Shown here: positions 2,094 to 8,172 of the stretch, one piece after another
How positions within the stretch are numbered: position 1 is the stretch's first letter
Layout: the number at the start of each line of letters is the position of its first letter
Notes under the pieces: model-generated
Told to the model about the DNA's origin: nothing
What the model saw: the letters and a program-made list of their open reading frames with translations, nothing else
The model's database searches: none
NCBI GenBank assembly: GCA_947644645.1
Contig: CANSAF010000006.1
Coordinates: 14,917-78,916 of the forward strand
Source of the DNA: an uncultured Sporosarcina sp.
GTDB lineage: Bacteria; Bacillota; Bacilli; Bacillales_A; Planococcaceae
Direction: 5' to 3'
Length of the DNA: 64,000 bases
Translations under genes and position numbers: made by a program

Positions 2094-2102
2094 ATTAAGA
2101 GC

Positions 2103-2135
2103 AGCGCATCTTCTGAAAAGGGGATGCGCTTTTAG
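2103..2135 (+). terminator. Terminator hairpin; left copy of the hairpin pair flanking the NERD gene
   Basis: AGCGCATC (2103-2110), 12-nt loop, GATGCGCT (2123-2130), TTT. Confidence 0.7.
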
Positions 2136-2279: not shown

Positions 2280-3179
2280 TTGCCATTCGAAGATGTTCAT
2301 ATTCAACAAAAGTATGCCGCCGTGAAAGCAGGATTTGGCGGCGAGCAACAATTGGATTATGTCTTTGAGCGTTATAAATTTCCAATGAATTACCGCGTGT
2401 TTCATGATTTGTCGTTAACATCGCCTACGCCATTTCAAATTGACACACTTTTGATCACACCATCGTATGCAATTGTTTTTGAAGTGAAGAATATTGCAGG
2501 AGAATTAAAAGTGCTGGTGAATCCTCCGCAATTGCAAAGAACACTTGGAAATGGCGAAGTAAGTGGCTTCAAAAGTCCAATTATACAAGTGCGAAATAAT
2601 TGTCAGTTACTAAAAGATTGGCTTCGCGAAAAAAATATTGACTTGCCGATATACGGCGCGGTCGTTTTGGCATATTCGAAGCAACGGATTGAATTATTAG
2701 ATACATCGATTCCATTTTTATTTCCAGAAGCTGTACCTTTGTACGTTCGAAATTTGCCCGTAACTCCTGAGCTATTGGAAGAGAATGTATTTGAAAAGTT
2801 AGCGACTGAGCTTCTGGCTAGTCATCAAGAATTTATTCCGCGGCCAATTTGTGAAATGTTTCCTTATTTGGCGAATGATTTTAGATCAGGCGTAGCTTGT
2901 CCATCTTGTCAAAAACTTACCATGGAAAGACGTCTAAGAAATTGGCGTTGTTTGTCTTGTGGCAAAATCAGTGAGGATGCGCATAAACAAGCGATTCGAG
3001 ATTGGTTTTTATTGTATGGGGGAAAAATGACAAATCGCGAATGTCGAAAGTTTTTGGGGATTACCAGTCCTGATATTGTTTATCGATTATTGAAAGATAT
3101 GGATTTAGAAGTTGAAGGAGCAAAACGAAATCGGACCTATGTGATGAAAATGGGAAAGAGTTTTCGAGAAAATAAATGA
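2280..3179 (+). CDS. NERD domain protein (PD-(D/E)XK nuclease-related, Zn ribbon, C-terminal winged-HTH-like region); true start probably upstream, about 2211-2222
   Basis: GFGGEQQLDY, FHDL..., QIDTLLITP...FEVKN (NERD core); CPSC...WRCLSC; MTNRECRKFLGI...VYRLL; frame open back to 2211. Confidence 0.85.
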   Translation: MPFEDVHIQQKYAAVKAGFGGEQQLDYVFERYKFPMNYRVFHDLSLTSPTPFQIDTLLITPSYAIVFEVKNIAGELKVLVNPPQLQRTLGNGEVSGFKSPIIQVRNNCQLLKDWLREKNIDLPIYGAVVLAYSKQRIELLDTSIPFLFPEAVPLYVRNLPVTPELLEENVFEKLATELLASHQEFIPRPICEMFPYLANDFRSGVACPSCQKLTMERRLRNWRCLSCGKISEDAHKQAIRDWFLLYGGKMTNRECRKFLGITSPDIVYRLLKDMDLEVEGAKRNRTYVMKMGKSFRENK

Positions 3180-3184
3180 GTGAG

Positions 3185-3214
3185 CAAGCGCATCTATTGG
3201 GATGCGCTTGTTTT
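3185..3214 (+). terminator. Terminator hairpin; right copy of the hairpin pair flanking the NERD gene
   Basis: CAAGCGCATC-tattgg-GATGCGCTTG-TTTT directly after the stop codon. Confidence 0.75.
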
Positions 3215-3258
3215 GGTTAGGGTAGGTTAGGGGTGAGATTGAGGTCGAGGTTGAGGTG
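3215..3258 (+). repeat. G-rich low-complexity tract: TTAGGG x2 plus four GAGRTN hexamers
   Basis: GGTTAGGGTAGGTTAGGGG then GAGATT GAGGTC GAGGTT GAGGTG. Confidence 0.75.
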
Positions 3259-3303
3259 AAAAATTGCTGTAAAAAGATGTTTTTTGTTAAAAATCTGTGA
3301 TAG

Positions 3304-3375
3304 CGCGGATAAAGTATGCTTGAGCGCGGATAACGAGTGCCTGAACGCGGATAAACTACTCTGAAGCGCGGATAA
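3304..3375. repeat. 21-bp-period tandem array 1 (core CGCGGATAA x4)
   Basis: Cores start at 3304, 3325, 3346, 3367. Confidence 0.97.
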
Positions 3376-3478
3376 AAAAGTTCCTCCCCCAAAAAATCTA
3401 ATTTCCCAAGTATTGGATTTAGTTTGAGATGAAAAACTTCTATACAATGCTGTTTTTTTTGTTAAAAATATGTCATAG

Positions 3479-3571
3479 CGCGGATAAAGTGTGCTTGAAC
3501 GCGGATAACGAGTGCCCGAACGCGGATAAACTCCCCTGAAGCGCGGATAACCCACGTCCGAGCGCGGATAA
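3479..3571. repeat. 21-bp-period tandem array 2 (core CGCGGATAA x5)
   Basis: Cores start at 3479, 3500, 3521, 3542, 3563; spacers match array 1 unit by unit. Confidence 0.97.
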
Positions 3572-3638
3572 ATTAAAACTAAGTGCTTTCACATATTCCT
3601 AGTGTAAGATAGAGCTAACGAGAAAGGTGTGTTTTGCG

Positions 3639-4325
3639 GTGGATATGAAAATTTTTGTGATTGAAGATGATGAGGCGATTTTTTCTTCATTGAAAGAGAG
3701 ATTTGGACAATGGTCGTTAGAGGTAACGGGTCCACGTAATTTTCAAGATGTCATGGCGGACTTCATAGAAGTGGAGCCGCATCTTGTTATGATTGATATT
3801 CAGCTTCCTGCATTTGATGGGTTTCATTGGTGTCGGGAAATTCGGGCAGTTTCTAAAGTGCCGATTGTCTTTTTATCGTCGCGAGATCATCCGATGGATA
3901 TGGTGATGGCGATGAATATGGGAGCGGATGACTATGTGCAAAAGCCTTTTCATTTTGATGTTTTACTTGCGAAAGTACAAGCAATTTTGAGAAGAACGTA
4001 TGCGTATGGTGAAGAGAAATCGGATCATTTGGAGTGGAATGGTGCGATGATTGATATGAAAAGATGCATGATTAGAAAAAATGGTTTAGATGTCGAGTTG
4101 ACGAAAAATGAGTTTTTCATACTTGTTGCATTGGTTGAAGCGACGGATCAGATTATTTCAAGAGACGATTTAATTCGCAAGCTTTGGGATGATGAGCGAT
4201 TTGTGAATGATAATACATTGACGGTGAATGTGACAAGACTGAGACAGAAACTTTCGGAAATTGGACTGGGGGAAGCGATTGTAACGAAAAAGGGACTTGG
4301 ATATATGGCTGTTAGGAGTGACTAA
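3639..4325 (+). CDS. bceR: OmpR-family response regulator, BceR/GraR-like
   Basis: IEDD, MIDIQLP (phospho-Asp), GADDYVQKPF, NTLTVNVTRLRQKL; sits upstream of a HK and ABC pair; start GTG 3639 or ATG 3645. Confidence 0.85.
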   Translation: MDMKIFVIEDDEAIFSSLKERFGQWSLEVTGPRNFQDVMADFIEVEPHLVMIDIQLPAFDGFHWCREIRAVSKVPIVFLSSRDHPMDMVMAMNMGADDYVQKPFHFDVLLAKVQAILRRTYAYGEEKSDHLEWNGAMIDMKRCMIRKNGLDVELTKNEFFILVALVEATDQIISRDDLIRKLWDDERFVNDNTLTVNVTRLRQKLSEIGLGEAIVTKKGLGYMAVRSD

Positions 4326-4326
4326 A

Positions 4327-5352
4327 ATGTTTTTTAGATATATGAATGATAAAAAAAGCTGGTTATTCTTTTATATTGCATCCATTGGTTTAGTCGATTT
4401 TGTTTTATTATTGGACCAAGGTATTCAAATAGAATTCGCTTCAGTGCTTTATTTGAACTTATTATTAGTGTTCGTTTTACTATTATTTATCGTCTGGCGT
4501 TATCATATGGAAACGAGATTTACGAAAGAGTTGGCGGAATTATTAGATGAAAATCATGAAGCTTGGTATGTCGCGCTTCCCAAAACAAAGTATCAGCAGG
4601 AAGAAATGACGAAAGAGTTATTGCAAAGTGCTGCCCTTCAATTTTCAAATCGATTGGCAGAAGTTCAAAATTTAAATATGCAAGCAGGAGATTATACAGC
4701 TGCTTGGATTCATGAAGTGAAAACACCGCTTACCGCAATGAAATTAATGATAGATGAACATCGTGGAGATCCACATATACGGAAAATCGAAACAGAGTGG
4801 TTGCGGCTTTATTTATTAATTGACCAACAATTATCGATTTCTCGTTTGCCTTCATTAGAAAAAGATTATGTATTAGAAAAGACGAATTTACAAACACTTG
4901 TAGCGAAAGAAGTGAAAGAACTGGCTTCTTGGTGTATGGAGAAAAATATCGCAATTGAATTTGAAGGAGAAGAAGTCGAGGTCATCTTGGATGTGAAATG
5001 GTGTCATTTTATCCTTCGTCAATTATTAACGAACGCGATTAAATATAGTCCAATCGGTGGTGTGATCACGATTGTAATGAAGGAAGATCAAACGGGACAT
5101 GCCATTTTACAAATACAAGACGAAGGACCGGGCATTCCACCGCATGATTTACCACGTATTTTTGAAAAAGGATTTACGGGGGGTGCAGGAAGAATTCATA
5201 ATGCGGCATCTGGACTCGGATTATACCTTGCTAAAACAGTGGCAGAAAAAATGAGCATAGCTTTATATGCAACAACAGAAGTAGGAAAAGGAACGTCGAT
5301 TGACATGTTATTTCCAAATGAAAATGATTTTGATAAAGTGACAAAGCTGTAA
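4327..5352 (+). CDS. bceS: Intramembrane-sensing histidine kinase, BceS-like
   Basis: Two N-terminal TM helices with a short loop; WIHEVKTPL H-box; NAIKYS, DEGPGI, GLGLYL; RBS AGGAG before ATG 4327. Confidence 0.85.
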   Translation: MFFRYMNDKKSWLFFYIASIGLVDFVLLLDQGIQIEFASVLYLNLLLVFVLLLFIVWRYHMETRFTKELAELLDENHEAWYVALPKTKYQQEEMTKELLQSAALQFSNRLAEVQNLNMQAGDYTAAWIHEVKTPLTAMKLMIDEHRGDPHIRKIETEWLRLYLLIDQQLSISRLPSLEKDYVLEKTNLQTLVAKEVKELASWCMEKNIAIEFEGEEVEVILDVKWCHFILRQLLTNAIKYSPIGGVITIVMKEDQTGHAILQIQDEGPGIPPHDLPRIFEKGFTGGAGRIHNAASGLGLYLAKTVAEKMSIALYATTEVGKGTSIDMLFPNENDFDKVTKL

Positions 5353-5412
5353 GGTTACTCGCCTCCTTTGTCATCTAAATCAAACGACCAATGATGATGT
5401 GGGTGCTAAAAT
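5339..5412 (+). promoter_or_regulatory. BceR-type binding site and promoter of the ABC operon
   Basis: TGACA-AAGC-TGTAA (5339-5352) fits TNACA-N4-TGTAA; a second half-site TGTCA lies 21 bp downstream (5369-5373); -10 TAAAAT at 5407-5412. Confidence 0.75.
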
Positions 5413-5444
5413 AAGGATAAGTTAAGCTTAAGGAGGCACTTTAC

Positions 5445-6230
5445 ATGAACGAGAAAAATATAAAAAAAACCGTATTACATGCACAAAATTTAACGAAATC
5501 TTATGGGACGCGTGGAAATGTACAAGACGTTTTAAAAGGCATTGACCTTCATGTAGATGAAGGGGAATTTGTTGGAATTATGGGACCATCTGGTGCAGGG
5601 AAGACGACACTTTTAAATGTGCTCGCGACAATCGACCGCCCGACTTTAGGCAAAATTTTAATTGACGGTGATGATATTTCACGTATGAAAGATGCTCGTT
5701 TGTCAACATTTAGACGCGATAAACTGGGGTTTATTTTCCAAGATTATAATTTGCTCGATACATTAACTGTAAAAGAAAATATTTTGCTGCCAATTTCTTT
5801 AGGAAAAGTGAAGAAGCTAGAAGCAGAGAAACGTTTTATCGACATTGCAGATATTTTAGGAATTACAGATCATGCCAATAAATATCCACATGAACTATCG
5901 GGGGGACAGAAGCAGCGGACATCTGCGGCGCGGGCTTTGATTAACGAGCCTTCGATGGTATTTGCGGATGAACCAACTGGGGCATTAGATTCGAAATCGG
6001 CTGCGGCATTATTAAAAACGATGGAAGATGTGAACAAAGAGCGTGGTGTAACGATTATGATGGTGACGCATGATGCAATTGCTTCGAGTTATTGTAATCG
6101 AGTTGTATTTTTGAAAGACGGCATGATTTATTCGGAATTGTACCGAGGGGATAAAACGAGACAAGCCTTTTTCCAAGAAATTTTAAAGGTACAAGGCGTT
6201 CTCGGGGGTGACAGCGTTGACTCTATTTGA
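5445..6230 (+). CDS. bceA: ABC transporter ATP-binding subunit, BceA-like
   Basis: Walker [28 protein letters not shown]. Confidence 0.88.
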
Positions 6231-8172
6231 TCTTGTCTTTCGGAGTATGCGGAAAAATATTAAACATTATTATTTGTATTTCTTTGCGTTAATTTTTAGT
6301 GTAACTTTGTATTTTGTATTCGCGACTTTACAGCATGATGAGTCAGTTGTTGAACGCTCAGGCGGTTCGATGGGCGCAGCGTTTTCGGCGGCAGGTATTC
6401 TTTTATTAATCATTGCGGGAATTTTTGTCGTTTATGCCAATGCAATCTTTTTAAAACGAAGAAGTCGTGAAATCGGTCTTTATCAATTAATTGGTTTATC
6501 GAAAAGCAAAGTTGTACGTATGTTTATGCTTGAAAATATTTTGTTAAGCTCAGGCGCATTGTTTATAGGCATAGGGGTAGGTATTCTAGTATCTCGTTTA
6601 TTTTTACTCCTACTTATGAAACTAATTGGTTTTGATGGATATATAACTGTAACGTTTTCGACTTCAGCAGTGCTGCAGACGGTTCTTGTATTTATGGTTA
6701 TTATCGCATTCACCTCTATTCAAATGTTATTTACAGTTTATCGCAATACATTATTACATTTATTCAATGCGGATCAAAAGGGGGAAATTCCCAAAAAGCC
6801 AAAATCGATTTTATCGGCAATTTTGGCTGGATTAGGGATTCTACTCATTGTTTTTGGTTATTGGTTATCTGGAAATATGATGAATGATTTATTATTTTTC
6901 AATATGCTTTTAGTGCTAGCGTCTACAATTTTAGGAACGTACTTACTGTTTCGTGTAACCATTGGTTGGGTTTTATATCAAGTGCGTACGAGAAAACAAG
7001 GTCATTTAGGTTTAAATAATAGTTTATCGATTGCTTCGCTCATGCATCGGATGAAAGGAAATGCGAATTCACTGACGATTATTACAGTGTTGTCCGCCAT
7101 GACGTTGACGATGTTATCGGGATCTTATTCATTGTATTATGCAACGGAACAAGAGACGCGTTATTCTTTCCCATTCGATTTTATGTTAGATGAGATTAGA
7201 TCAGAAGAACTTCCGGAAGATATGATTTCATTAGCCCAGTTTGAAGACGCATTAAAAGCTGAAGGAATTGCTTATACGAAATCGAAATTGGAATTATTAG
7301 GCGTAGAAGGCGAATACAAAAATACAAACTTCCCAGCGATTATCGGACCGCGTGATGTTTTGTGGAATAGTTATATGATAAATGCTGAACAACTCGAAGA
7401 AGCAGGGCTTGATATTGGAATACCTGAAGCGGATACAATCATTTATCATGAGGCTCAATTAGGGGTGTTTGTAAAAGATTTGAATTTACCATTTCAAATT
7501 AACGTAACAAGTAGCGAACCTCATCGAACTTTTGAAGTCGTTAAATACGGGGAAGGGGACGTTTATAACTTTAGTACAGGTCCTCAGCTTGTTGTAAATG
7601 CGACTGATTTCGAACGATATAAAAAAGAAATGGCTAAAGAAAACTTTCTGGAACTGTCTCCAGAGTGGGTTGTCAGAACTGTTTACGCATTGAATATTAC
7701 AGATCCAAAACAACTTCCTAGAGCCTCAGAAATATACGGAGGAAAAGAATCGATTTACGGGGAGGATTTTTATTCAATCTATGAAAATGCATTACGTGAA
7801 TCAGGTTTACTAATCTTCATCGCTGGTTTCTTAGGACTTGTGTTTTTAATTTCAACGGGAAGTATTTTATATTTCAAACAAATGACGGAAGCAGAACAAG
7901 AGAAACAAAGCTATAAAACATTAAGACAGCTTGGTTTTTCTGAAAAAGAATTGCTGCGTGGAATTGTACGGAAACAAATTTTTGTTTTTGGCTTGCCACT
8001 TGCAATTGGTTTACTACATTCAATTTTCGCGATTAAGGCGGCAAGTTTCTTATTTTTGTCTGATATTACAGTGCCGACAGTAATTGCGATGAGCGCTTAC
8101 GGGATTATTTATTTAATCTTTGCGGTGTTGTCAGTAGGTTATTACAGAAAAATCGTGTCGGAAGCATTATAA
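6208..8172 (+). CDS. bceB: FtsX-like ABC permease, BceB-like antimicrobial peptide resistance
   Basis: 654 aa, about 10 TM helices with a large extracellular domain; [14 protein letters not shown] and ILYFKQ..EAE motifs. Confidence 0.88.

What the first reader, a model, noticed from the sequence alone, without database searches (positions are those of the whole stretch)
3252..3571. Duplicated leader plus array module with position-specific 12-nt spacers
The two arrays are 175 bp apart and each is preceded by a conserved AT-rich leader (TGAAAAA...TTTTTTGTTAAAAAT-TGT-ATAG). Spacers match by position: AGTATGCTTGAG/AGTGTGCTTGAA, CGAGTGCCTGAA/CGAGTGCCCGAA and ACTACTCTGAAG/ACTCCCCTGAAG. Array 2 has an extra unit (CCCACGTCCGAG). 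The 9-nt core is invariant in 9 of 9 copies while spacers within an array differ at many positions. That pattern suggests selection on the core and on the two-helical-turn period rather than simple slippage. The leader/repeat/spacer layout resembles a miniature CRISPR or TIGR-like array, but the units are much shorter.
Basis: partly seen in the sequence, partly recalled or inferred. Interest (0 to 1): 0.72.

Follow-up and report, generated by a model that had tools for sequence, protein, structure and literature searches.

The report
Phased DNA repeats with NERD partner
The two small repeat arrays are one site of a large, apparently undescribed set of repeats spaced exactly 21 bases apart between the genes of this Sporosarcina genome. 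Each repeat family sits beside its own NERD-type nuclease gene, which points to a repeat-plus-enzyme partnership like REP/RAYT rather than a CRISPR-like memory of invaders.

Summary
CGCGGATAA occurs 4 + 5 times at an exact 21-nt period (3304-3375 and 3479-3571), each array behind a conserved AT-rich leader.

It is not a local oddity. The genome, a Sporosarcina, holds 16 such arrays at 13 loci. At least six further 21-bp-period families with other cores bring the total to 84 arrays, all intergenic.

- Cores are about 99.6% identical, while the middle of the "spacers" is about 33% identical.
- The period never varies.
- The core strand is the G-rich, leading strand at 15 of 16 family A arrays.
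- Related species carry arrays at the same site upstream of the response-regulator gene, each with its own core (CGGTGATAA, CGGTGGTAA).
- Strains differ only by in-register loss or shuffling of units. No new spacers appear.

CRISPR and TIGR readings fail: there is a single 9-nt repeat, no Nop or Cas gene, and the spacers are related by descent.

Key result: all four NERD-Zn-ribbon-winged-helix genes of the genome lie within 350 nt of an array, each of a different core family (chance about 2e-6). The same pairing recurs in Neobacillus, Bacillus and Planomicrobium.

Best reading: the arrays are two-turn-phased docking sites for their cognate NERD nuclease, a REP/RAYT-like partnership. Binding and cleavage are inferred, not shown.

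The parts
2100..2133 (+). Terminator hairpin after the MetE-like gene (stem GCGCATC/GATGCGC), left member of the twin hairpins flanking the NERD gene
   Evidence: Sequence read. It has the same stem as the hairpin at 3186-3214.
2280..3179 (+). NERD - Zn-ribbon - winged-helix protein gene (299 aa as listed; the reading frame is open from 2211). Proposed cognate partner of the CGCGGATAA arrays.
   Evidence: Pfam NERD, E = 9e-17. D55/E68/K70 and C207/C210/C224/C227 are invariant in 42 homologues. The AF2 model has pLDDT 85, with a Zn ribbon and winged helix at 200-290. Foldseek gives weak hits to restriction-endonuclease-like nucleases. It is one of four paralogues, each next to a different array family.
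3186..3214 (+). Terminator hairpin plus T-run of the NERD gene (right twin hairpin)
   Evidence: the AbsR25 'hit' is only this terminator-like hairpin.
3215..3257 (+). G/T-rich stretch of hexamer-like repeats (GGTTAG GGTAGG TTAGGG GTGAGA TTGAGG TCGAGG TTGAGG)
   Evidence: period-12 row at 3235-3257. Conserved with small changes in other strains. Role unknown.
3258..3303 (+). Leader 1. The conserved part TTTTTTGTTAAAAATCTGTGATAG abuts the first core.
   Evidence: The same leader sits at a fixed distance before the first core in 16 of 16 family A arrays.
3304..3375 (+). Array 1: four CGCGGATAA cores, 21-nt period, spacers AGTATGCTTGAG / CGAGTGCCTGAA / ACTACTCTGAAG
3376..3432 (+). Inter-module segment, not conserved at other loci
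3433..3478 (+). Leader 2 (TTTTTTTTGTTAAAAATATGTCATAG)
3479..3571 (+). Array 2: five CGCGGATAA cores, 21-nt period, spacers AGTGTGCTTGAA / CGAGTGCCCGAA / ACTCCCCTGAAG / CCCACGTCCGAG
3645..4325 (+). OmpR-family response-regulator gene of a Bce-like RR-HK-ABC module. This is context: arrays lie directly upstream of its orthologue in three other Sporosarcina species.
   Evidence: Pfam. Orthologous loci are L112 (G016), L134 (G067) and G006:C12:22922-23035.

Best explanation
What it is. The two arrays are one locus of 'family A', which has 16 arrays at 13 loci. Family A is one of at least seven families, 84 arrays in all, of dispersed intergenic arrays in this Sporosarcina genome. In every family a 9-14-bp core recurs every 21 bp, so all cores lie on one face of the double helix.

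Proposed mechanism. I propose that the arrays are double-stranded-DNA docking platforms for the protein encoded just upstream (2280-3179). That protein has a PD-(D/E)XK (NERD) nuclease domain, a Zn ribbon and a C-terminal winged helix. Each NERD paralogue would recognise the core of its own array family, one protomer per 21-bp unit, and line up along the array. The partnership works like REP/RAYT: a chromosomal nuclease or transposase-like gene flanked by its cognate repeat, with many non-autonomous copies of that repeat spread through intergenic DNA. Here the copies lie mostly just after terminators. Strand-asymmetric binding or nicking, or copying through the lagging-strand template, would explain why the cores point with replication.

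Shown:
- the anatomy of the arrays;
- invariance of core and period;
- genome-specific cores at syntenic sites;
- polarity relative to replication;
- strain dynamics;
- the gene-array pairing;
- the domain make-up of the protein.

Inferred:
- that the protein binds the core;
- that it cuts DNA;
- that it maintains or spreads the arrays;
- any benefit to the cell.
For: 1. Constraint on core and phase. Cores are invariant in 77 of 78 family A units, against 33% identity in the unit middle, and every interval is 21 nt. The 21-nt period is kept in 28 of 61 congeners and in 17 of 21 genera of the family, while cores differ between genomes: CGGTGATAA, CGGTGGTAA, CGCGGGTAW, GGCGGATAW and others.
2. 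Non-coding and unstructured.
   - In Siminovitchia the period drifts between 20 and 21 and the apparent frame slips.
   - RNA folds are no better than shuffles, except for a marginal z = -2.0 on the minus strand of array 2.
   - Rfam finds nothing.
   - All 84 arrays are intergenic.
   - 10 of 13 family A loci start 32-85 nt after a co-oriented terminator.
3. Syntenic arrays with genome-specific cores. Arrays lie upstream of the same response-regulator gene in G000, G016, G006 and G067. G067 even has two modules of 4 + 5 cores.
4. Pairing with NERD genes.
   - The genome has four NERD-Zn-ribbon-wHTH paralogue regions.
   - All four have an array within 350 nt, against a background of 3.8% of genes, so p^4 = 2e-6.
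   - Each is paired with a different family: C6-A, C10-B, C36-D, C50-E.
5. The same pairing elsewhere.
   - Starting from NERD homologues: N. soli (core CGCAAGTTGG), B. xiapuensis (CGCTAGTTG), B. salipaludis (CGCYAGTT) and a metagenome contig (CGACAGTTG) all have an array beginning shortly after the NERD stop codon (13 to about 90 nt). In S. luteola and Sporosarcina sp. UB5 the CGGTGATAA arrays lie downstream, behind an inserted IS3 or GNAT gene.
   - Starting from arrays: 5 of about 60 loci of 8 kb from other genera hold a NERD gene, and 4 of these lie within 400 nt. In Planomicrobium Y74 the gene is bracketed by arrays on both sides.
6. The core next to the NERD gene equals the genome-wide core, both in this genome and in UB5.
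7. The protein. The catalytic D55/E68/K70 and the four Zn cysteines are invariant in 42 homologues. A confident winged helix is predicted, and the nuclease fold gives weak Foldseek matches.
8. Polarity. The core strand is the G-rich strand at 15 of 16 family A arrays, with similar ratios in families B, C, D, F and G. In complete genomes, 15 of 17 loci in UB5 agree with the dnaA position and 6 of 7 in G090. In other genera 46 of 54 agree with GC skew.
Against: - No binding, cleavage or expression data exist.
- Families C, F and G (38 arrays) have no NERD partner in this draft assembly.
- The family B partner is truncated at its Zn ribbon.
- The family A partner is frameshifted in two strains and deleted in a third, while the arrays persist.
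- One Sporosarcina orthologue has no adjacent array.
- The identical core CGCGGATAA is paired in Neobacillus and Planomicrobium with NERD proteins only 24-31% identical to this one. The 60%-identical Sporosarcina orthologues pair with CGGTGATAA instead. No clean recognition code emerges: only an S-P-D/N start of the putative recognition helix is shared, by 3 of 5 CGCGGATAA-linked proteins.
- Family E shows no clear polarity, 6 of 14.
- Within Sporosarcina, part of the adjacency could be inherited synteny.
Confidence: 0.5

Rival explanations
1. The arrays are docking sites for some other, unidentified DNA-binding protein, such as a nucleoid-associated protein, an insulator, or a polar roadblock at operon boundaries like the stoperators of mycobacteriophage L5. 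The NERD genes would be neighbours only because the NERD gene and an array travel together as a cassette, or through inherited synteny.
For: Two-turn phasing, an invariant asymmetric core, intergenic position just after terminators and upstream of promoters, and polarity all fit such a protein. Families C, F and G have no NERD partner. Arrays persist where the NERD gene is broken.
Against: All four NERD paralogues sit next to arrays, each next to a different family. The pairing recurs across three families of Bacillales with yet other cores. That is hard to explain unless the gene and the core are functionally matched.
Confidence: 0.17
2. The arrays are transcribed and act as RNA. The leader would be a promoter, and the RNA would either present repeated protein-binding motifs (a sponge or rut-like platform that deals with read-through transcripts) or be cut into about 21-nt units.
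For: The conserved leader sits at a fixed distance from the first core, and the core plus its next bases is -10-like (GATAAAGT; TGATAAAGT in relatives). The + strand RNA is predicted to be unstructured. The arrays are co-oriented with replication, as highly expressed genes are. Many follow co-oriented terminators.
Against: The consensus scan finds no sigma-70-type promoter. Leaders are not conserved in the family's larger-genome genus g30 (genome G200), where arrays start 0-16 nt after the terminator T-run. Three family A arrays are antisense to both neighbours. An exact 21-nt period kept across genera with different cores points to helical phasing of duplex DNA. Rfam has no match.
Confidence: 0.12
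3. The arrays are a selfish or neutral minisatellite-bearing element of the MITE, BOX, BrickBuilt or STAR type. It would spread and expand by slippage and recombination with no dedicated trans-acting factor and no function.
For: Distribution among congeners is patchy. The ileS-lspA array is a lineage-specific insert of about 300 nt, absent from 29 congeners. Unit number varies between strains. Long arrays of identical units occur in relatives.
Against: Cores are 99.6% identical while neighbouring positions are near-random. The period is fixed. Cores change in concert at syntenic loci. Polarity is strong. The arrays pair with NERD genes. No terminal inverted repeats or conserved tail were seen.
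Confidence: 0.08
4. The arrays are miniature CRISPR- or TIGR-like guide arrays whose 12-nt spacers target foreign DNA.
For: Only the leader-repeat-spacer layout.
Against: The repeat is 9 nt. No Nop gene was found in six genomes, and no cas-like neighbour. The spacers have constrained ends and belong to a few classes shared between arrays, strains and species. The arrays occur as 84 dispersed short arrays rather than one long array beside an effector gene. No phage or plasmid similarity was found. A 12-mer is also too short to be specific: about 270 chance hits per spacer would be expected in 2.3 Gb of phage DNA.
Confidence: 0.02

Closest known systems
REP / REPIN elements and their RAYT (TnpA_REP) genes of Proteobacteria
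   Same: Both are short intergenic repeats present in tens to hundreds of copies, often at gene ends. Both have genome-specific sequence variants. Several repeat families can share one genome, each matched to its own paralogous nuclease or transposase-like gene, and that gene is itself flanked by the repeat. Repeats persist after the gene decays.
   Different: REPs are palindromic hairpins recognised as single-stranded DNA by an HUH Y1 enzyme. Here the repeats are non-palindromic direct repeats at an exact 21-bp period, and the partner is a PD-(D/E)XK (NERD) protein with a Zn ribbon and a winged helix. No Y1 transposase (PF01797) is present in this genome or in several array-rich relatives.
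STAR elements of Staphylococcus (PMC3532100)
   Same: Both occur in Bacillales and are interspersed intergenic direct repeats (14 bp in STAR) separated by recurring spacers. Loci expand and contract, spacers are conserved by lineage, genomic sites are species-specific, and the function is unknown.
   Different: STAR repeats are at least 40 bp apart and not phased at two helical turns. No partner gene is known for them. Polarity to replication has not been reported.
BrickBuilt minisatellite-MITE of Porphyromonas gingivalis (PMC4596501)
   Same: Both have a leader followed by a tandem repeat of about 22-23 bp, are strictly intergenic, have about 20 copies per genome and are species-specific.
   Different: BrickBuilt has no variable spacer inside the unit. 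It has leader and tail subunits with inverted-repeat ends (a MITE) and is reported to have promoter activity. Our arrays have no conserved tail or inverted ends.
Iteron arrays of theta-replicating plasmids (RepA, pi, TrfA)
   Same: Both have 4-7 direct repeats of 19-22 bp on one helical face next to an AT-rich stretch, with one protomer of a winged-helix protein per repeat, and the gene for that protein lies adjacent.
   Different: Iterons lie in one or two places on a plasmid and fire replication. Here there are 84 chromosomal arrays, no Rep-family gene and no plasmid matches.
Stoperators of cluster A mycobacteriophages (L5 gp71; from my own knowledge)
   Same: Both are asymmetric protein-binding sites of about 13 bp scattered in short intergenic regions, in one orientation relative to a polar process.
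   Different: Stoperators are single sites, not phased arrays. They are phage-encoded repressor targets, and their orientation follows transcription.
TIGR-Tas and CRISPR-Cas arrays
   Same: Both have a repeat-plus-variable-segment layout behind a leader.
   Different: See the membership tests: the repeat architecture, the effector gene, the spacer origin and the genomic distribution all differ.

Membership tests
CRISPR-Cas | Repeats of about 23-55 nt separated by unique spacers of similar length | tested here: not met
   The repeat is 9 nt (about 14 nt with semi-conserved flanks) and the variable part is 7-12 nt.
CRISPR-Cas | Spacers acquired from foreign DNA; new spacers differ between strains | tested here: not met
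   Spacers fall into classes shared between arrays and species. Strains show only in-register loss or shuffling. No phage or plasmid similarity was found for the locus.
CRISPR-Cas | cas genes next to the array | tested here: not met
   The neighbours are a MetE-like gene, the NERD gene and an RR-HK-ABC module. The other 12 loci are flanked by housekeeping genes. A genome-wide cas search was not run.
TIGR-Tas | Two distinct alternating 8-12-nt repeats (edge and loop) with two spacers per 36-nt unit (PMC12045711) | tested here: not met
   There is one core per 21-nt unit.
TIGR-Tas | An adjacent Nop-domain Tas gene | tested here: not met
   PF01798 was not found in this genome or in five array-rich relatives. 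Caveat: a very divergent Nop domain could escape the Pfam model.
REP/RAYT | Palindromic (hairpin-forming) repeat units | tested here: not met
   The units are direct repeats, and their folds are no more stable than shuffles.
REP/RAYT | A Y1 HUH transposase (RAYT) gene flanked by the repeats | tested here: not met
   No PF01797 match in G000, G013, G016 or G020.
REP/RAYT | One cognate gene per repeat family, with the gene flanked by its own repeat (the logic of the system) | tested here: met
   Four NERD paralogues sit next to four different array families. In Planomicrobium the gene is bracketed by arrays on both sides.
Plasmid iteron origin | An adjacent Rep initiator gene, with the element on a replicon that depends on it | tested here: not met
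   There are 84 chromosomal copies, the neighbours carry no Rep domain, and there are no plasmid hits.
MITE (for example BrickBuilt, BOX) | Terminal inverted repeats or conserved boxA/boxC ends, and target-site duplication | tested here: inconclusive
   The leader is conserved but there is no conserved tail or inverted end. The one filled-versus-empty site comparison (ileS-lspA) suggests a duplicated flank of about 25 bp, but it is too diverged to be sure.
DnaA-box cluster / Chi / KOPS-type polar words | The word is over-represented and skewed genome-wide, also outside arrays | tested here: not met
   There are 20 singleton 9-mers, close to chance, almost all (19 of 20) inside ORFs, with weak skew. 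The core differs from TGTGGATAA at two positions, and it varies between species, unlike the DnaA box.

The most novel reading that the evidence does not exclude
NERD-Zn-ribbon-winged-helix proteins and 21-bp-phased direct-repeat arrays form a previously unrecognised, widespread class of chromosomal repeat/enzyme systems in Bacillales. A PD-(D/E)XK nuclease would bind, and probably nick, its own core, maintain and disperse the arrays through a replication-coupled route, and mark operon boundaries. Several orthogonal protein/core pairs would coexist in one genome. This would be a non-HUH, non-palindromic counterpart of REP/RAYT, and a natural set of orthogonal sequence-specific DNA binders or nickases.
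Probability: 0.4. Interest if true: 0.9.

Novelty: new variant of a known kind. Interest (0 to 1): 0.8.

Why it matters
If the pairing is functional, it assigns a role to a large orphan protein family, the stand-alone NERD proteins of Firmicutes.

It would also explain a conspicuous but unremarked genome feature: about 7 kb of phased repeats in this 3.4-Mb genome, and hundreds of units in some Sporosarcina, Neobacillus and related larger-genome Planococcaceae genomes.

It would show that the repeat-plus-domesticated-nuclease logic known from REP/RAYT evolved independently with a different enzyme fold and a different repeat architecture.

Several questions become directly testable:
- how a genome changes the core of dozens of dispersed arrays in concert;
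- why the arrays point with replication;
- whether they insulate transcription units.

The coexistence of several core/protein pairs in one cell suggests a toolbox of orthogonal DNA-recognition modules.

In practical terms, such arrays break short-read assemblies and can be mistaken for CRISPR-like elements.

Tried and rejected
- **Known RNA family.** Rfam at E <= 10 gave only a terminator look-alike and noise.
- **Protein-coding heptad repeat on the minus strand (LSAxxxx / YPRxxxx).** These frames are nearly stop-free. I rejected the idea because all nine core bases, including would-be third positions, are invariant. The frame also slips where the period drifts in Siminovitchia, and the arrays lie between terminators.
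- **Cross-phylum conservation.** Exact-core hits in Actinomycetota, Omnitrophota, Oscillospiraceae and others are plain satellites of identical 21-mers, as expected by chance among 21-nt satellites.
- **RAYT/IS200.** Absent.
- **TIGR.** No Nop gene.
- **Plasmid or phage origin.** No hits.
- **Spacer matches to phages.** Not attempted, because 12-mers are uninformative.
- **DnaA boxes, Chi or KOPS.** The word is not enriched outside arrays.
- **Origin-proximal clustering.** Seen in Sporosarcina sp. UB5 but not in G090, so not general.
- **Sigma-B or sigma-D promoter reading of leader plus first core.** The spacing is marginal or off by two, and the g30 genome G200 has no leader, so I dropped it.
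- **Functional link to neighbouring genes.** Neighbours are unrelated housekeeping genes. LytTR-type 9+12 sites and BceR sites were considered only from memory and not pursued.
- **A trans-acting RNA carrying the anti-core.** None was found among the singleton 9-mers.
- **PADLOC.** No defence-system model matches the NERD protein.
- **Recognition code.** I looked for one between the winged-helix recognition helix and the core. There is only a weak S-P-D/N signal.
Full report
**1. The observation**

CGCGGATAA occurs nine times in the window, all on the + strand. The starts are 3304/3325/3346/3367 and 3479/3500/3521/3542/3563. Shuffles give 0.54 expected, and none of 100 reached nine. Tandem Repeats Finder gives period 21 for both arrays.

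Each array abuts the leader TTTTTTGTTAAAAAT(C/A)TGT(G/C)ATAG. The two modules are 77% identical, and the spacers correspond by position.

The locus lies between the terminator of a NERD-domain gene (2280-3179) and an OmpR-type response-regulator gene. That gene heads a Bce-like RR-HK-ABC module.

**2. It is a genome-wide family, not a local duplication**

The window is contig C6 of a 3.36-Mb draft genome with 37.7% G+C. Homologue names identify the genus as Sporosarcina.

The same core at the same period forms 16 arrays of 3-6 units at 13 loci. Three of these loci carry tandem modules. All have the same leader at a fixed distance from the first core, and none has a conserved tail.

The per-position profile of 61 full units shows this pattern:
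- positions 1-9 are invariant, with a single exception (CACGGATAA);
- positions 19-21 and 10-11 are semi-conserved (R-A-R ... M-S);
- the seven middle positions are variable and almost free of A at positions 14-18.

Pairwise identity is 0.996 in the core, 0.54 in the flanks and 0.33 in the middle. The spacers are not random. Classes such as AGT(A/G)TGCTTGAR, CGAGTGCC.GAA and ACT(A/C)C... recur between arrays.

The neighbouring genes are unrelated housekeeping genes: topB, ileS/lspA, pyrE, pckA/dps, pstB/pstS and others.

**3. Not coding, not a known or structured RNA**

Two minus-strand frames are nearly stop-free. Three things exclude a protein repeat:
- every core base is invariant, including would-be wobble positions;
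- in Siminovitchia a 20/21 drift of the period shifts the apparent frame (LSA to YPR to IRG) with no consequence;
- the arrays sit between terminators.

Rfam finds nothing. RNA folds of the arrays are not more stable than shuffles: z = +1.1 and +0.6 on the + strand, and +0.1 and -2.0 on the - strand. The simple consensus scan finds no sigma-70-type promoter.

**4. Distribution and evolution**

*Exact core.* It is absent from 24 sampled congeners. It is present in Neobacillus species, Planococcus, Planomicrobium, Siminovitchia and several 'Bacillus' species. Exact-core hits in other phyla are satellites of identical 21-mers, compatible with chance.

*Relaxed core.* This reveals the real extent of the family.
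- 28 of 61 Sporosarcina species carry arrays with CGGTGATAA, CGGTGGTAA or our core.
- A still looser pattern hits 70 of 151 genomes in 17 of 21 genera of the family. Cores are genome-specific: CGCGGGTAW, GGCGGATAW, CCGAGATAA, CCGGTAAGTAAA and others.
- The period is always 21.

*A syntenic site.* Arrays lie directly upstream of the orthologous response-regulator gene in G016 (CGGTGGTAA) and in G006 and G067 (CGGTGATAA). G067 has two modules of 4 + 5 cores, as here. Coding DNA between these species is only about 70% identical. So a syntenic array keeps its layout while all its cores follow the genome's own core type.

*A lineage-specific gain.* The ileS-lspA array is absent from all 29 congeners examined. 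It appears as an insert of about 300 nt between the ileS terminator and the lspA promoter.

*Strain variation.* Logan contigs encoding the identical response regulator show three layouts:
- 4 + 5 units, as in the window;
- a single module of 5 units whose spacers are a mosaic of the window's two modules;
- 4 + 4 units.

Only in-register loss or shuffling is seen, and no new spacers.

**5. Polarity and placement**

GC skew in this genome is strong, ±0.1-0.2. The core strand is the G-rich, leading strand at 12 of 13 loci. This includes two loci whose flanking genes lie on the other strand.

Complete genomes agree:
- In Sporosarcina sp. UB5 (G067; dnaA at 1.10 Mb), 15 of 17 loci follow the replichore.
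- In G090, 6 of 7 loci follow it.
- In other genera, 46 of 54 loci agree with the local skew, against 43 of 58 that agree with the upstream gene.

Outside arrays the 9-mer occurs at chance level, almost always inside ORFs. It is therefore not a Chi- or KOPS-like word.

10 of 13 family A loci begin 32-85 nt after a co-oriented intrinsic terminator. In G200, a 5.3-Mb genome of genus g30 in the same family, arrays begin 0-16 nt after the T-run. Where a co-directional gene follows, its own -10 element lies between the array and the gene. The arrays thus occupy the gap between transcription units.

**6. The partner gene**

I clustered all ORFs in the 8-kb loci around same-core arrays from other genera. 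Apart from spurious 'ORFs' through the arrays, the most recurrent family was a NERD protein with the same architecture as the window's gene:
- L046: array 53 nt upstream of the gene;
- L074: arrays about 380 nt upstream;
- L076: array 13 nt after the stop codon;
- L089 (Planomicrobium): the gene is bracketed by arrays on both sides.

A core-agnostic scan of the own genome for 21-nt periodicity then revealed six more array families:

| Family | Core |
|---|---|
| B | GCACTGAAA |
| C | AATGTCCGC |
| D | TGTGCCCG |
| E | CCTAAAGT |
| F | GAGTTCTC |
| G | GAGTTTACA |

In total there are 84 arrays, about 356 units and 67 loci, none of them inside a long ORF. All families but E show the same polarity.

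The genome has exactly four NERD paralogue regions. Every one lies within 350 nt of an array, each of a different family:
- C6 with family A, downstream of the gene;
- C36 with family D, downstream;
- C10 with family B, downstream;
- C50 with family E, three modules upstream.

Only 3.8% of gene proxies have an array that close, so four of four has a chance of about 2e-6.

Starting instead from NERD homologues gives the same result:
- In N. soli, B. xiapuensis, B. salipaludis and a metagenome contig, arrays with yet other cores (CGCAAGTTGG, CGCTAGTTG, CGCYAGTT, CGACAGTTG) start soon after the stop codon (13 to about 90 nt) and before an M20 peptidase gene.
- S. luteola and UB5 have CGGTGATAA modules downstream, behind a secondarily inserted IS3 or a GNAT gene.
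- One Sporosarcina orthologue has none.

In this genome and in UB5, the core next to the NERD gene is the same as the genome-wide core.

**7. The protein**

- In 42 homologues, D55, E68 and K70 (the PD-(D/E)XK motif) and C207/C210/C224/C227 are invariant.
- The AlphaFold2 model has mean pLDDT 85, and 93-97 over residues 200-290. It shows an N-terminal alpha/beta nuclease domain, a Zn ribbon and a helix-helix-helix-wing module.
- Foldseek gives only weak matches (E about 0.01), all to restriction-endonuclease-like nucleases: the R2 RLE domain, Bax1, BspD6I, Cas4 and Hjc.
- Pfam adds sub-threshold IS1595- and Cas12f-type Zn-ribbon hits. PADLOC has no match.
- I found no paper linking NERD proteins to repeats, and none describing these arrays.

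**8. Interpretation**

Five facts argue for recognition of duplex DNA by a sequence-specific protein that lines up on one helical face:
- an exact two-turn period kept across genera;
- an asymmetric invariant core of 9-14 bp;
- concerted, genome-specific core changes at syntenic sites;
- location between transcription units;
- the absence of RNA structure.

The one-to-one pairing of NERD paralogues with core families identifies the likely protein. It also gives the system the logic of REP/RAYT, with a different enzyme fold and a different repeat architecture.

Strand-asymmetric binding or nicking, or spread through the lagging-strand template, would account for the polarity. That step is inference.

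Weak points:
- three orphan families;
- decaying NERD genes beside intact arrays;
- the same core paired with distantly related NERD proteins;

The CRISPR/TIGR reading is excluded on every defining feature tested.

**9. Verdict**

The guide-array analogy is not.

The most likely nature is cognate docking arrays of a NERD-family nuclease, part of a widespread and apparently undescribed repeat/enzyme system of Bacillales. Confidence is about 0.5.

Noticed in passing
Own genome outside the window, e.g. C2:68519-68774, C23:5329-5442, C61:4561-4710, C113:4110-4222: There are six further families of 21-bp-period intergenic arrays, with cores GCACTGAAA, AATGTCCGC, TGTGCCCG, CCTAAAGT, GAGTTCTC and GAGTTTACA. 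They total 68 arrays. Families C, F and G have no NERD partner in this draft assembly.
   Followed up: partly
window 2100-2133 and 3186-3214: The terminators on either side of the NERD gene share the stem GCGCATC/GATGCGC. This is compatible with the NERD cassette having duplicated, or inserted into, a terminator.
   Followed up: partly
L120/L122 (1469-2366) and L121 (1290-1510), other strains of the same species: The NERD gene of this locus is frameshifted in two strains. In a third it is lost by an internal deletion between two copies of TTGAAGGA. The arrays are kept in all three.
   Followed up: partly
window 3215-3257: A G/T-rich run of hexamer-like repeats (GGTTAG / GGTGAG / ATTGAG / GTCGAG / GTTGAG) lies between the NERD terminator and leader 1. 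It is conserved with small changes in other strains. Its role is unknown.
   Followed up: no
own C26:17157-17522 versus L139-L167: The ileS-lspA array is a species-specific insert of about 300 nt. Both junctions resemble the empty-site sequence TTTTTTTGTGGTAATATTAAAAGTGAA, which suggests a long duplicated flank.
   Followed up: partly
G067 (Sporosarcina sp. UB5) 1.33-1.48 Mb; L118/L119: Twelve array loci are crowded into 150 kb. The region is rich in two-component, Lia-like and transporter genes and lies 0.23-0.38 Mb from dnaA. Two loci there point against the replichore, in a patch of locally inverted skew.
   Followed up: partly
L190 3946-5309 (S. luteola): An IS3-family transposase gene is inserted between the NERD gene and its arrays.
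   Followed up: no
window 3627-8172: There is a Bce-type module: an OmpR-family response regulator, a histidine kinase, an ABC ATPase and an FtsX-type permease. In G015 and G003 an array ([TC][GA]CGGATAT) lies between the kinase gene and the ABC genes instead of upstream of the regulator.
   Followed up: partly
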